64,000 nucleotides of DNA, taken from a virus (lineage: Duplodnaviria > Caudoviricetes). The translations under genes were made by a program, and so were the position numbers. The stretch lies in IMG/VR virus record IMGVR_UViG_3300028186_000155; one strand, 5' to 3'. This document shows, piece by piece, positions 44,376 through 46,111 of the stretch; within the stretch, counting starts at the first letter, position 1; every line of letters starts with the position of its first letter. The notes under the pieces were generated by a model that was not told the DNA's origin, searched no databases, and worked only from the letters and a program-made list of their open reading frames with translations.

Positions 44376-45191
44376 TCAAGCGTAGAGCAAGGTCTTTGCC
44401 ACAAAGTTTTCGAATTGATGCAGCAGCACAAACTGGCTCCAATTCGTTGTGGTGTATACCGCGTTATGGGTCAGTACCGTGCCGTCATACAAAGCCACGG
44501 CAGGCGCATCGAGGTCAACAATGTTGAATGTCCAGCCGTTTTTGTACACACCAAAAATCGGTTGATCATCAAACACCGCGCTAACCACAGCGTACCCATT
44601 TCGAGCATCGTACCAGCAGCCCGTAACCACCAAACCGTCAAGGTCGGTCACGCCTTCAGAGGTCAATGCTGTGATTGGTCCCCGGAAAGTTTCCATGGTT
44701 TGTCCGCTGTGCAGAACTACCCGGAAATTGGTTGCTTGATCCGTGAGCCACACCCGGCCCGCACCTACCTCAATTTCTTGCCAATTAGGGCCAACCAAAA
44801 TTGATCCCTGATCGGTGCCGAATGCAGGTCCGTTCACATTGCGAGCGCAGACAAAATTGCCATCAAACTCATGAACCAGCGTCCAGTCTGAATCCAGTGC
44901 ATAGATCCCCACACCATCCACCGACGCGTAGAACGCACCGGCAGCAAAAACAATGTGAGAAAATACGAGATTTACATCGGTTGCGGTCCACTCGACTTTA
45001 TCGGTCGAGGTGTGAACCTGCTGCCCTATCGCGATGTACTGGCCTGCACCGAATGCAATGCCGTTGATAGAATCAGCAACCGACGCAGGTACGAAACCAT
45101 TAGACTGAACGAATAGACCGTTTCCATCTTGGGTCGTACCTGAACCACCGACAACAAGCGAACGTCGCGGAACAGGTTTTACGACTTTTTT
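44376..45191 (-). CDS. -1 frameshift extension of 45179..46111 (beta-propeller-like, ~271 codons)
   Basis: frame open from 45224 with no ATG/GTG/TTG until 44921; begins at an in-phase A_AAA_AAG. Confidence 0.8.
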   Translation of the reverse strand, partial: KKVVKPVPRRSLVVGGSGTTQDGNGLFVQSNGFVPASVADSINGIAFGAGQYIAIGQQVHTSTDKVEWTATDVNLVFSHIVFAAGAFYASVDGVGIYALDSDWTLVHEFDGNFVCARNVNGPAFGTDQGSILVGPNWQEIEVGAGRVWLTDQATNFRVVLHSGQTMETFRGPITALTSEGVTDLDGLVVTGCWYDARNGYAVVSAVFDDQPIFGVYKNGWTFNIVDLDAPAVALYDGTVLTHNAVYTTTNWSQFVLLHQFENFVAKTLLYA

Positions 45192-46111
45192 ACGACGTTT
45201 GCCAGAACCTCTACGCTCACTTCGTCACCGGCGCTAAGGCGCGGTTTGGCTACGAGTTTCAGGCCGTAAATGCCGAGCGGAACACCTTGCTTGGTGCGTT
45301 CGGTGGTGGCGGGCAGGGAATGCGAAATGAACGGGAATTCATAACGCTGAATCATCTGCGTGACGTTGTGCAGTTCGTTGGTGGCGCTATCGCTGATTAC
45401 ACGAATGCCGTTGTTGAACCACGCGTAGCTGTCACCTTTGCCGTCCAGCGATTTACCGAATACCAAATCCCATTTGATTTGATCGGTTTCACCCGAAGCG
45501 TCGGTGTCGAGATACAGCGAAATATCGTACATTTGCGTCACGTCGGTTACGCCGTCTTTCAGCGAGCCGACAGTTACCGCAAAATTCCACGATTCCGCTT
45601 GTGCTTCGTCCAGTTCGATATCGAACCCATTGGCGCCATCGCCGTAGTAGGTCGAATCGTTTACTTTGCGTACAGCCAAACCGAGTTCGATATTCGCGTT
45701 GGTGCCCAGCACGAAATCATCAGCCGGATTACCATGGCCGACCAGCATGTAATTTTTGCCGCCAGATTCGCGAACAAAACTGGTTTCGGCTTTCGGCTGT
45801 TCAGTCAGCGGACCATAGGTCACGGTGGCCAGTGCGCCGGTTGGTTCCCACGGGCCGAGACAGATCAACGTGTCATTCAAATAAAACGAAATGATCTTGT
45901 TGTCAGAACCGGCGATGATATTGGACATTACGATGGCGTCGGAGGTGCCATAGTGTGTGCAAACCGCAGTTCGGAACGCGCCCGACTTTACGATTTCGTC
46001 CATTTCGTCTTCGGTGACTTGAATGCGGCGAATTTGGTTAGGATCGCCACGTTCCTGCATGGCTTCCAAAATGTCAGCCACTACCCCGGTATATTTCTGG
46101 ATGTTCATCAA
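45179..46111 (-). CDS. probable virion/surface protein (short form)
   Basis: 310 aa, beta-rich acidic C-terminal part; ends GTA AAA AAG TCG TAA. Confidence 0.75.
   Translation of the reverse strand: MMNIQKYTGVVADILEAMQERGDPNQIRRIQVTEDEMDEIVKSGAFRTAVCTHYGTSDAIVMSNIIAGSDNKIISFYLNDTLICLGPWEPTGALATVTYGPLTEQPKAETSFVRESGGKNYMLVGHGNPADDFVLGTNANIELGLAVRKVNDSTYYGDGANGFDIELDEAQAESWNFAVTVGSLKDGVTDVTQMYDISLYLDTDASGETDQIKWDLVFGKSLDGKGDSYAWFNNGIRVISDSATNELHNVTQMIQRYEFPFISHSLPATTERTKQGVPLGIYGLKLVAKPRLSAGDEVSVEVLANVVKKS

What the first reader, a model, noticed from the sequence alone, without database searches (positions are those of the whole stretch)
44376..46111. Programmed -1 ribosomal frameshift adding a ~270-aa beta-propeller-like domain to a probable virion protein
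Seen: the 310-aa gene ends GTA AAA AAG TCG TAA, placing the slippery heptamer A_AAA_AAG (45191-45185) in the correct phase. An imperfect stem-loop (CCUG..CGAC..GUCG..CAGG, 45176-45139) starts 8 nt downstream. The -1 frame opens after a TGA at 45227-45225 and runs to 44376. It has no ATG/GTG/TTG for ~100 codons (first GTG 44921), yet that start-less part already reads like folded protein (INGIAFGAGQYIAIG, FSHIVFAAGAFYASVDG, propeller-blade-like). A terminator-like hairpin follows at ~44336-44373. Established: A_AAA_AAG plus a hairpin is the E. coli dnaX/IS-type -1 signal, and phages extend virion proteins by frameshifting (T7 gp10A/10B). Inference: two isoforms (~310 and ~578 aa), with the minor one displaying an adhesin/receptor-binding-like propeller. 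Standard gene callers would split and truncate it.
Basis: partly seen in the sequence, partly recalled or inferred. Interest (0 to 1): 0.85.

Follow-up and report, generated by a model that had tools for sequence, protein, structure and literature searches.

The report
Frameshift adds propeller to phage protein
A giant Pseudomonas-type phage almost certainly makes two versions of one protein from a single message: a 309-residue form, and a 577-residue form carrying an extra seven-bladed propeller domain, made when ribosomes slip back one base at a conserved A AAA AAG site. This is a well-known phage trick that public annotation of this phage group has missed.

Summary
On the minus strand, a 309-aa gene (46108-45179) ends GTA AAA AAG TCG TAA, so A_AAA_AAG (45191-45185) sits in X_XXY_YYZ phase. 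A hairpin (45177-45138) starts 7-8 nt downstream. The -1 frame is open from 45224 to 44376, has no ATG/GTG/TTG for 88 codons after the slip, and ends at a terminator.

- **Conservation:** nine other independently assembled relatives keep the same heptamer, phase, nearby TAA, hairpin position and a 261-278-codon extension. They include phages Lu11 and HRDY3, where it is annotated as two hypothetical genes.
- **Natural variants:** one relative encodes the whole thing as a 582-aa in-frame protein. Three have the first part alone, followed by a terminator.
- **RNA constraint:** synonymous codon identity is 0.74-0.90 in the 30 codons from the slip site, against 0.23-0.67 elsewhere.
- **Structure:** the extension models confidently (pLDDT 90) as a seven-bladed beta-propeller that begins about 6 residues after the slip.
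- **Likely role:** the first part carries an Ig-like module homologous to phage PAU gp9 (annotated capsid decoration protein) and to a PA5oct virion protein found by mass spectrometry. A virion-surface role is therefore plausible but inferred.

This is a new, unannotated member of a known kind. The scan already reached the same conclusion on related genomes.

The parts
46115..46120 (-). Shine-Dalgarno-like AAGGGG, 6 nt before the ATG
   Evidence: Read directly from the sequence.
45179..46108 (-). 0-frame gene: 309 aa plus TAA (short isoform). It has an N-terminal alpha/beta domain and an Ig-like beta-sandwich module (about residues 100-309).
   Evidence: Translation. 25 homologous clusters of 305-309 aa. 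Model pLDDT 84.6. Ig-like matches with Z up to 7.1. hhalign to PAU gp9 gives 98.6% probability.
45185..45191 (-). Slippery heptamer A_AAA_AAG in X_XXY_YYZ phase
   Evidence: It is identical, and in the same phase, in all 10 frameshift-type loci.
45178..45184 (-). Spacer of 7 nt (8 if the A-U closing pair is not counted). It contains the last sense codon and the start of the 0-frame TAA.
   Evidence: The spacer length is the same in all loci folded.
45138..45177 (-). Predicted stimulatory hairpin: lower helix (A)CCUG:CAGG(U), a 2x2 internal loop, then an upper helix CCGCGACG:CGUC-G-GUGG with one bulged G
   Evidence: Folding. Pair counts (94.5% of cells paired; 24-51% when the partners are slid). 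The same position and architecture recur in the distant loci L006 and L007 with different upper-helix sequences.
44376..45185 (-). -1 frame extension: 269 codons plus TGA. It encodes a short Pro/Arg-rich linker and a 7-bladed beta-propeller. The long isoform is 308 + 269 = 577 aa.
   Evidence: Translation. tblastn to Lu11 and HRDY3 aligns from residue 1. Model pLDDT 90.4, pTM 0.88. Best structural match is the YVTN propeller 1l0q, Z 22.9 over residues 7-269. The in-frame ortholog P0005 aligns at its residues 309-582.
44338..44373 (-). Intrinsic-terminator-like hairpin plus T-run, directly after the -1 frame stop
   Evidence: No such element follows the 0-frame stop. Relatives that have part 1 alone carry a terminator-like hairpin right after their stop (read from the sequences printed).

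Best explanation
One transcript carries the 309-aa ORF and, overlapping its last codons in the -1 frame, a start-less 269-codon ORF.

**Proposed mechanism.** Most ribosomes read GTA AAA AAG TCG TAA and release the short protein. A fraction pauses with the two lysine tRNAs on A_AAA_AAG, because the hairpin 7-8 nt downstream sits at the mRNA entry channel. These ribosomes slip back one base, re-pair on AAA AAA, and continue with GTC GTA AAA CCT. This gives a 577-aa protein with the junction ..NVVKK|VVKPVPRR.. and three parts: the same N-terminal body, a short Pro/Arg-rich linker, and a seven-bladed beta-propeller.

**Likely role.** The body's Ig-like module is homologous to a capsid decoration protein (PAU gp9) and to a virion protein detected by mass spectrometry (PA5oct EST35_0383). 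The most likely role is therefore a virion-surface, probably capsid-decorating, protein, with a frameshift-set fraction of copies displaying a propeller binding domain.

**Shown here:** the signal, its conservation, the coding nature and fold of the extension, and the existence of natural fused and unextended orthologs.

**Inferred:** that slipping actually occurs, how efficient it is, where the protein sits on the virion, and what the propeller binds.
For: 1. **Signal in phase.** The heptamer is in phase, the 0-frame TAA follows one codon later, a -1 frame stop lies 13 codons upstream, and the -1 frame is then open for 269 codons. The frame change must therefore happen within about 46 nt, and the heptamer is the only slippery motif there.
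2. **Ten independent assemblies share the arrangement.** These are the window, HRDY3, Lu11, two IMG/VR genomes and five Logan/ENA/JGI contigs. All have A_AAA_AAG in the same phase, TAA zero or one codon later, and a -1 extension of 261-278 codons. Protein identity in the extension falls as low as 33-42%.
3. **No usable start.** In the nine loci analysed, no ATG/GTG/TTG occurs in the -1 frame until 29-88 codons after the slip, and the position of the first one is not conserved. Amino-acid conservation starts at the slip site.
4. **Natural in-frame ortholog.** P0005 is 582 aa. Its residues 1-305 match part 1 (41% identity, E 5e-74) and residues 309-582 match part 2 (E 3.7e-30). It has no heptamer at the junction.
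5. **Part 1 alone also occurs.** Three relatives have part 1 only (305-308 aa), followed directly by a terminator-like hairpin. Both products are therefore viable proteins.
6. **RNA-level constraint.** Synonymous codon identity is 0.90, 0.79 and 0.74 in the three 10-codon windows starting at the slip. All other windows of the gene lie between 0.23 and 0.67 (alignment).
7. **Hairpin.** It folds at -22.6 kcal/mol with z = -3.96. It begins at the same distance from the heptamer in the window, L013, Lu11, L007 and L006, although L006 and L007 have different upper helices. The in-frame relative lacks it.
8. **Fold needs the start-less part.** The extension models as a complete 7-bladed propeller from residue 6-7 onward (pLDDT 90.4; Z 22.9 to 1l0q), so products started at internal GTGs would lack blades.
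9. **Transcript boundary.** A terminator follows the -1 stop, not the 0-frame stop.
10. **Known shiftiness.** A_AAA_AAG is the most shift-prone heptamer in E. coli and is the dnaX site (PMC5009743). The phage encodes no tRNAs, so decoding relies on host tRNA-Lys.
11. **Virion link.** hhalign of part 1 against PAU gp9 'capsid decoration protein' gives 98.6% probability, E 1.2e-15. PA5oct EST35_0383, 'structural protein, ESI-MS/MS', matches at BLASTP E 4e-13. BFVD fold matches to a 768-aa entry (H9NBN6, probably PAU gp9) and to a Yersinia phage 'possible surface protein' score E about 1e-15.
Against: - There is no direct evidence of the trans-frame protein.
- The hairpin has no double-sided compensatory changes, and its covariation score is no better than shuffled controls. 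Its support is conservation, position and one-sided G-U/G-C and U-A/U-G changes.
- In L013 and L006 the fold is not significantly more stable than shuffles (z = -1.7 and -1.3).
- There is no conserved upstream Shine-Dalgarno-like stimulator as in dnaX (alignment).
- The gene lies among nucleotide-metabolism and small unknown genes, about 11 kb from the tail tube and sheath genes, not inside an obvious structural block.
- The virion assignment rests on one shared module. The N-terminal ~100 residues do not align to PAU gp9 or to the PA5oct protein.
- Neither part matches any Pfam or PHROG family.
Confidence: 0.87

Rival explanations
1. Transcriptional slippage: RNA polymerase adds or drops an A in the A6 run, and the edited mRNAs encode the fusion in frame. 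The ribosome does not slip.
For: The site contains a run of six A, and homopolymer runs can cause RNA polymerase slippage (general knowledge; reviewed in PMC5009743).
Against: - Efficient slippage normally needs longer runs, about 8-9 or more (own knowledge).
- Slippage does not depend on reading phase. Yet the motif is always A_AAA_AAG, with the G kept and always in X_XXY_YYZ phase, in 10 of 10 loci.
- A hairpin at a fixed 7-8 nt distance, and suppressed synonymous change downstream of the run, are what a ribosomal stimulator predicts.
Confidence: 0.05
2. Two separate genes: the downstream ORF is translated on its own from an internal or non-canonical start, as currently annotated in Lu11 and HRDY3, and no fusion is made.
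For: Public annotation calls separate genes starting at internal TTG or GTG codons. Gene callers produce 200-250-aa products in the databases.
Against: - The first canonical start lies 29-88 codons after the slip, and its position differs between genomes.
- Protein conservation and the propeller fold begin 6-7 residues after the slip, so any internal start removes one or two blades.
- A natural 582-aa in-frame fusion exists.
- I saw no Shine-Dalgarno-like motif before the GTG at 44921.
Confidence: 0.04
3. Artefact or decay: a sequencing or assembly indel in the A run, or a recently broken fusion gene on its way to becoming a pseudogene.
For: Homopolymer runs are common sites of sequencing error. 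An in-frame relative exists.
Against: - Ten independent assemblies from isolates and metagenomes have the identical frame arrangement, although they diverge to 33-42% identity in part 2.
- Both ORFs stay open and conserved.
- The signal region is under extra nucleotide-level constraint, which a pseudogene would not show.
Confidence: 0.01

Closest known systems
E. coli dnaX and IS3-family (IS911, IS150) -1 frameshift signals
   Same: Identical A_AAA_AAG heptamer in X_XXY_YYZ phase, a 3' stem-loop after a short spacer, and dependence on the host's lysine tRNA (PMC5009743).
   Different: [quoted passage not shown] Here the shift bypasses a stop to add 269 residues, and no upstream stimulator is conserved. 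The proteins are not homologous.
Frameshift-appended C-terminal extensions of phage virion proteins: T7/T3 gene 10A/10B, Lactobacillus phage A2, Listeria phages A118/A500/PSA
   Same: A frameshift near the 3' end of a phage structural-type gene gives a mixture of short and C-terminally extended copies. As the review notes for Ig-like extensions, related phages may encode the same extension in frame or not at all (PMC5009743). That matches the three states seen here.
   Different: Those cases involve major capsid or tail proteins with small or Ig-like extensions. Here the carrier is not the major capsid protein (that gene is at 62971-63927). The added domain is a complete seven-bladed beta-propeller, nearly doubling the protein. 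Virion location is untested.
Sphingomonas phage PAU gp9 (annotated 'capsid decoration protein (banana)') and Pseudomonas phage PA5oct EST35_0383 (structural protein by ESI-MS/MS)
   Same: Homologous Ig-like module. Part 1 residues 119-305 align to gp9 residues 105-283 (hhalign 98.6%, 31% identity). Residues 107-307 align to the PA5oct protein (29% identity, E 4e-13). Like the long isoform here, gp9 continues after the module with a large C-terminal region.
   Different: No frameshift in either. The gp9 C-terminal region (about 485 aa) shows no similarity to the propeller. The N-terminal ~100 residues are not shared. The PA5oct protein stops after the module.
Tail assembly chaperone G/GT-type frameshift of tailed phages
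   Same: A conserved -1 programmed frameshift in tailed-phage late genes that gives two N-terminally identical proteins in a fixed ratio (own knowledge).
   Different: G/GT proteins are small and lie directly before the tape-measure gene, with an extension that binds the tail tube protein. This gene is 309 + 269 aa, lies elsewhere, and has a different fold.

Membership tests
-1 programmed ribosomal frameshift site (dnaX / IS3 type) | Slippery heptamer X_XXY_YYZ in the correct phase of the upstream frame | tested here: met
   A_AAA_AAG at 45191-45185, in phase 2 relative to the ATG. It is the same in 10 of 10 loci.
-1 programmed ribosomal frameshift site (dnaX / IS3 type) | Stimulatory RNA structure about 5-9 nt 3' of the heptamer | tested here: met
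   A hairpin starts 7-8 nt downstream (-22.6 kcal/mol, z = -3.96). It begins at the same distance in the five loci folded, including two with different upper helices. There is no double-sided covariation, so the structure is predicted, not proven.
-1 programmed ribosomal frameshift site (dnaX / IS3 type) | -1 frame open from the site, coding, and lacking its own start | tested here: met
   269 open codons. The first ATG/GTG/TTG lies 88 codons in, and 29-88 codons in among relatives. Protein conservation starts at the slip.
-1 programmed ribosomal frameshift site (dnaX / IS3 type) | Signal conserved among relatives, with reduced synonymous change | tested here: met
   Synonymous codon identity is 0.90/0.79/0.74 after the slip, against 0.23-0.67 elsewhere (alignments).
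-1 programmed ribosomal frameshift site (dnaX / IS3 type) | Trans-frame protein demonstrated | not testable with these tools
dnaX-type signal specifically | Upstream Shine-Dalgarno-like stimulator about 10 nt 5' of the heptamer | tested here: not met
   The upstream sequence varies at synonymous sites (GAGG, GAGA, GAAG) and lies about 16 nt away. It is not conserved.
Frameshift-extended phage virion proteins (T7 10A/10B type) | The 0-frame product is a virion component | tested here: inconclusive
   Only remote homology of one module to PAU gp9 and to a PA5oct protein detected by mass spectrometry. The Lu11 and HRDY3 records call both ORFs hypothetical proteins.
Frameshift-extended phage virion proteins (T7 10A/10B type) | The extension is a folded domain appended to the C-terminus | tested here: met
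   Seven-bladed propeller model with pLDDT 90.4 and pTM 0.88; Z 22.9 to 1l0q.
PAU gp9-like capsid decoration proteins | Homology across the gp9 core module | tested here: met
   hhalign probability 98.6%, E 1.2e-15, residues 119-305 against 105-283. Foldseek against BFVD gives E 4.8e-15 for a 768-aa entry (H9NBN6, no name shown) that I take to be PAU gp9.
PAU gp9-like capsid decoration proteins | Shared capsid-anchoring region and location on the capsid | not testable with these tools
   The N-terminal ~100 residues are outside the aligned region. Location needs cryo-EM or proteomics.
YVTN / DUF6242-type seven-bladed beta-propellers | Seven-bladed propeller fold | tested here: met
   VIA-align Z 22.9, rmsd 2.7 over 253 residues to 1l0q; Z 21.7 to a 7-bladed designed protein. 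Foldseek matches to Kelch, WD40 and Ycf48 propellers.
YVTN / DUF6242-type seven-bladed beta-propellers | Sequence-family membership (Pfam gathering score) | tested here: inconclusive
   No Pfam family reaches threshold. Repeat proteins that match residues 35-100 carry DUF6242 and HVO_0234-like propeller hits.
Tail assembly chaperone G/GT | Small protein pair directly upstream of the tape-measure gene | tested here: not met
   309 + 269 aa, flanked by small unknown genes, with a dCTP deaminase gene about 1.9 kb upstream and no tape-measure gene downstream.

The most novel reading that the evidence does not exclude
The frameshift may act as a copy-number dial for a capsid-surface adhesin. A fixed minority of decoration-protein copies on a T>=25 jumbo capsid would carry a propeller that binds a host-envelope or matrix glycan, giving weak reversible attachment through the head. 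The three natural states would then be a ready-made evolutionary titration: no propeller, a frameshift mixture, and all copies fused. The nucleotides conserved beyond the hairpin, about +50 to +85 nt, might make the ratio conditional.
Probability: 0.2. Interest if true: 0.6.

Novelty: new member of a known kind. Interest (0 to 1): 0.45.

Why it matters
- **Annotation.** It corrects the annotation of a whole group of jumbo phages: Lu11, HRDY3 and many metagenomic relatives. Two 'hypothetical proteins', one of them truncated, are really one gene with two products.
- **A system to study frameshifting.** It offers a clean, naturally replicated case in Pseudomonas phages, with built-in controls (in-frame, unextended and frameshifted orthologs) for asking why a phage doses an appended domain instead of fusing it.
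- **Phage surface biology.** If the protein sits on the virion surface, the site and its hairpin show how a large binding domain can be displayed on only some copies of a jumbo-phage surface protein.

The mechanism itself is textbook, so the gain is a new example and better annotation rather than a new principle.

Tried and rejected
- **Family searches.** Pfam and PHROG scans of both parts gave nothing above threshold.
- **Collection scans.** A viral-contig scan with part 2 found no confirmed locus. The scan with part 1 found two.
- **Search for fused forms.** The 'longer' word-index search with part 1 found nothing, not even the 582-aa fusion known from the exhaustive search. It says nothing about how common fused forms are.
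- **Covariation.** The test on the hairpin found 0 pairs changed on both sides, and the score was no better than shuffles. I do not claim covariation support.
- **Second hairpin.** RNAalifold predicted a second hairpin about 57-84 nt after the heptamer, but it is broken in Lu11 and I did not adopt it.
- **Upstream stimulator.** An upstream Shine-Dalgarno-like stimulator is not conserved.
- **Heptamer frequency.** The heptamer count in the window is at chance level, so the motif alone is no evidence.
- **Solved structures for part 1.** PDB fold searches gave only generic Ig-like sandwiches: best Foldseek E 1.1e-3 and VIA Z up to 7.1.
- **PAU gp9 C-terminus.** It shows no similarity to the propeller.
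- **Literature.** The Lu11 genome paper is not held. No paper mentions HRDY3. One literature search was swamped by an unrelated word.
- **Not run.** I did not use complex prediction. I do not claim a specific binding partner, and decoration proteins usually recognise assembled lattices rather than single subunits.
- **Rooting.** A tree of part 1 puts the frameshift-bearing forms in one clade, with the fused form on a long branch near the unextended clade. It cannot be rooted, so the order of events is open.
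Full report
**What is in the sequence**

On the minus strand, an ORF starts at the ATG at 46108, preceded by AAGGGG six bases upstream. 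It runs to a TAA at 45181-45179 and encodes 309 aa. Its last codons are GTA AAA AAG TCG TAA. The heptamer A_AAA_AAG (45191-45185) therefore lies in the X_XXY_YYZ phase needed for tandem -1 slippage.

The -1 frame has a TGA at 45227-45225. It is then open for 13 codons before the slip point and 269 codons after it, ending at the TGA at 44378-44376. The first ATG, GTG or TTG in that frame is the GTG at 44921, 88 codons after the slip.

A terminator-like hairpin with a T-run lies at 44373-44338, directly after the -1 stop. Nothing similar follows the 0-frame stop.

The fusion would be 308 + 269 = 577 aa.

**Is it more than chance?**

The heptamer alone is not. There are 15 copies in the window against 19 expected. 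The comparative evidence is what counts.

The genome is a complete 314-kb virus record with terminal repeats. Its nearest named relatives are the Pseudomonas jumbo phages HRDY3 and Lu11. In both, tblastn with the -1 frame product aligns from its first residue, yet the records annotate two separate hypothetical genes with internal starts.

I collected DNA for 13 further loci: isolates, IMG/VR, Logan, ENA and JGI assemblies. Ten loci, counting the window, share four features:

- A_AAA_AAG in the same phase.
- A TAA zero or one codon later.
- A -1 frame stop 8-18 codons upstream.
- A -1 extension of 261-278 codons.

This holds even where the extension is only 33-42% identical to the window's. Ten independent assemblies with the same frame arrangement rule out a sequencing indel or a recent pseudogene.

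**Three natural states**

- **Fused.** The exhaustive profile-free search with the extension found a 582-aa protein, P0005. Its residues 309-582 match the extension (E 3.7e-30) and its residues 1-305 match the upstream gene (41% identity, E 5e-74). Its DNA (L005) reads straight through the junction with no slippery motif. The two ORFs therefore correspond to one polypeptide.
- **Unextended.** Three more distant relatives (L010-L012, about 42-45% identity) have the first part alone, 305-308 aa, followed immediately by a terminator-like hairpin (read from the printed sequences) and unrelated genes. The short product is therefore a complete protein in its own right.
- **Frameshifted.** This arrangement can deliver both products.

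A tree of part 1 places all frameshift-bearing forms in one clade. It cannot be rooted, so I do not say which state came first.

**The RNA signal**

In alignments, the sequence upstream of the heptamer is peppered with synonymous differences. The heptamer and the following ~55 nt are almost invariant.

I measured this on a codon alignment of nine fusion reading frames. Synonymous codon identity is 0.90, 0.79 and 0.74 in the three 10-codon windows that start at the slip, and 0.23-0.67 in every other window of the 598-column alignment. This is the usual footprint of a functional RNA element laid over coding sequence.

The element is a hairpin whose core spans 45177-45138:

- a lower helix (A)CCUG:CAGG(U);
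- a 2x2 internal loop;
- an upper helix of about 8 pairs with one bulge.

A 60-nt segment from the heptamer folds at -22.6 kcal/mol, z = -3.96, with 0 of 200 shuffles as stable. The hairpin begins 7-8 nt after the heptamer in the window, L013, Lu11, L007 and L006. In L006 and L007 the upper helix is built from different sequences (CCGCC:GGCGG and CCCGCC:GGCGGG). The in-frame relative has no such hairpin at the equivalent place.

The limits should be stated plainly. Changes in the helices are one-sided only (U-A to U-G, G-U to G-C). No pair changes on both sides, and the covariation score does not beat shuffles. Two of the distant hairpins are not significantly more stable than shuffled sequence. 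The structure is well supported by conservation and fixed position, but not by covariation.

No upstream Shine-Dalgarno-like stimulator is conserved.

**Why a ribosomal slip rather than the alternatives**

- **Independent initiation** is unlikely. There is no conserved start, since the first candidates lie at 29, 40, 50, 52, 68, 87 or 88 codons in different genomes. Both protein conservation and the fold also begin right after the slip.
- **Transcriptional slippage** on only six A is expected to be weak (own knowledge). It would not need the conserved G, the conserved phase or a hairpin at a fixed distance.
- **Known shiftiness.** A_AAA_AAG is the most shift-prone heptamer known for E. coli ribosomes and is the natural dnaX site (PMC5009743).
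- **Host tRNA.** The phage encodes no tRNA, so the host's lysine tRNA decodes the site. I recall, but did not test, that Pseudomonas has only the UUU-anticodon lysine tRNA, as E. coli does.

**What the protein is**

*The extension.* With an 11-sequence alignment it models at pLDDT 90.4 and pTM 0.88 as an all-beta domain.

- Its best structural matches are seven-bladed propellers: the YVTN propeller of an archaeal surface-layer protein (1l0q, Z 22.9, rmsd 2.7, 253 residues, model residues 7-269), a seven-bladed designed protein (Z 21.7), and surface lipoproteins such as BtuG. Foldseek also returns Kelch, WD40 and Ycf48 propellers.
- The fold starts 6-7 residues after the slip. The ORFs annotated in HRDY3 and Lu11 would therefore lack one or two blades.
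- At sequence level, its first blades resemble repeats in large bacterial proteins that also carry Ig, PKD and Calx-beta domains (DUF6242-type). That is typical of extracellular binding proteins.

*The first part.* It models at pLDDT 84.6 as a small N-terminal alpha/beta domain plus an Ig-like beta-sandwich region, about residues 100-309. It has no Pfam or PHROG family. The sandwich module has three remote relatives:

- Sphingomonas phage PAU gp9, annotated 'capsid decoration protein (banana)': hhalign probability 98.6%, E 1.2e-15, residues 119-305 against 105-283. BFVD Foldseek also returns a 768-aa entry, H9NBN6, at E 4.8e-15; the table gives it no name, and I take it to be gp9 from its length.
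- PA5oct EST35_0383, a 'structural protein' by ESI-MS/MS: 29% identity, E 4e-13.
- A 'possible surface protein' of Yersinia phage fHe-Yen9-04.

The cryo-EM paper on PAU describes an arch of extra density on the hexamers next to each vertex (PMC5646251). It does not name gp9, so linking the arch to gp9 is my inference from the GenBank note.

PAU gp9 also continues, in frame, with a large C-terminal region unrelated to the propeller. The pattern is thus a conserved module followed by a variable distal domain.

**Weighing the virion role**

Against a structural role, the gene sits between a dCTP deaminase with small unknown genes on one side and a phosphoesterase and a DprA-like gene on the other. 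It lies about 11 kb downstream of the tail tube and about 12 kb from the sheath gene. The N-terminal domain is not shared with the PAU or PA5oct proteins. I put a virion-surface role at roughly 55-60% and capsid decoration specifically somewhat lower.

**Comparison with what is known**

Mechanistically this is a dnaX/IS3-type signal, without the upstream stimulator, used as in T7/T3 gene 10, Lactobacillus phage A2 and Listeria phages A118/A500 to append a C-terminal domain to some copies of a phage protein. The review notes that related phages may have the same extension by frameshift, in frame, or not at all (PMC5009743). That is exactly what is seen here.

Three things are new. This gene family has not been annotated this way. 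The appended domain is a whole seven-bladed propeller rather than an Ig-like or short tail. And the phages are jumbo phages of Pseudomonas.

Earlier agents of this scan reached the same conclusion on related genomes with 307/573-574-aa forms. I examined loci of that size class myself (L008, L009) and agree.

**Verdict**

This is a new member of a known kind. Confidence is about 0.85-0.9 that a programmed -1 ribosomal frameshift yields both isoforms. The ratio, the virion location and the ligand of the propeller remain open.

Noticed in passing
window 45136-45100 (about +55 to +90 nt after the heptamer): Nucleotide and synonymous-site conservation stays high beyond the end of the hairpin: 0.74 in codons 18-27 after the slip. 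RNAalifold suggests a weak second hairpin that is broken in Lu11. It could be a second stimulatory element, or it may only reflect high protein conservation.
   Followed up: partly
L013:1-52 (Logan SRR25394035 contig, relative of the window): The dCTP deaminase gene upstream of the frameshift gene in this relative is listed as a 608-aa product with DCD, Intein_splicing and DCD hits. This suggests an intein inserted in the phage dCTP deaminase. The window's own copy (47970-48713, 247 aa) has none.
   Followed up: no
window 52139-55723 (-): A 1194-aa protein just downstream of the tail tube region carries a stretch matching an endolysin PHROG (residues 652-726). Its Lu11 counterpart is annotated 'putative endolysin' (3.5 kb gene). 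It is probably a tail-associated lysin or tape-measure-like protein.
   Followed up: no
window 55726-56688 and 56688-57473 (-): Two adjacent genes both belong to PHROG 13792 (unknown function). They form a tandem paralog pair between the tail tube gene and the 1194-aa lysin-domain gene.
   Followed up: no
window 45830-46108 (-), residues 1-93 of the short protein: The N-terminal domain resembles a stand-alone 93-aa protein of Pseudomonas phage PaBG (BFVD S5VZG7, TM 0.83, 27% identity; tblastn E 2e-3). The possible anchoring domain therefore also exists as a separate small gene in a related jumbo phage.
   Followed up: no
whole genome G000 (314,224 bp): ARAGORN finds no tRNA gene in this complete 314-kb jumbo phage genome. 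That is notable, since some jumbo phages carry several (PAU has at least seven near gp9).
   Followed up: partly
window 41902-42354 (-): A 150-aa protein matches PHROG 1158, 'tail assembly chaperone'. Relatives at a similar position downstream of the frameshift gene carry DUF1353 proteins, and Lu11_0040 there is annotated 'putative tail assembly protein'. It is not followed by a tape-measure gene, so the name may be misleading.
   Followed up: no
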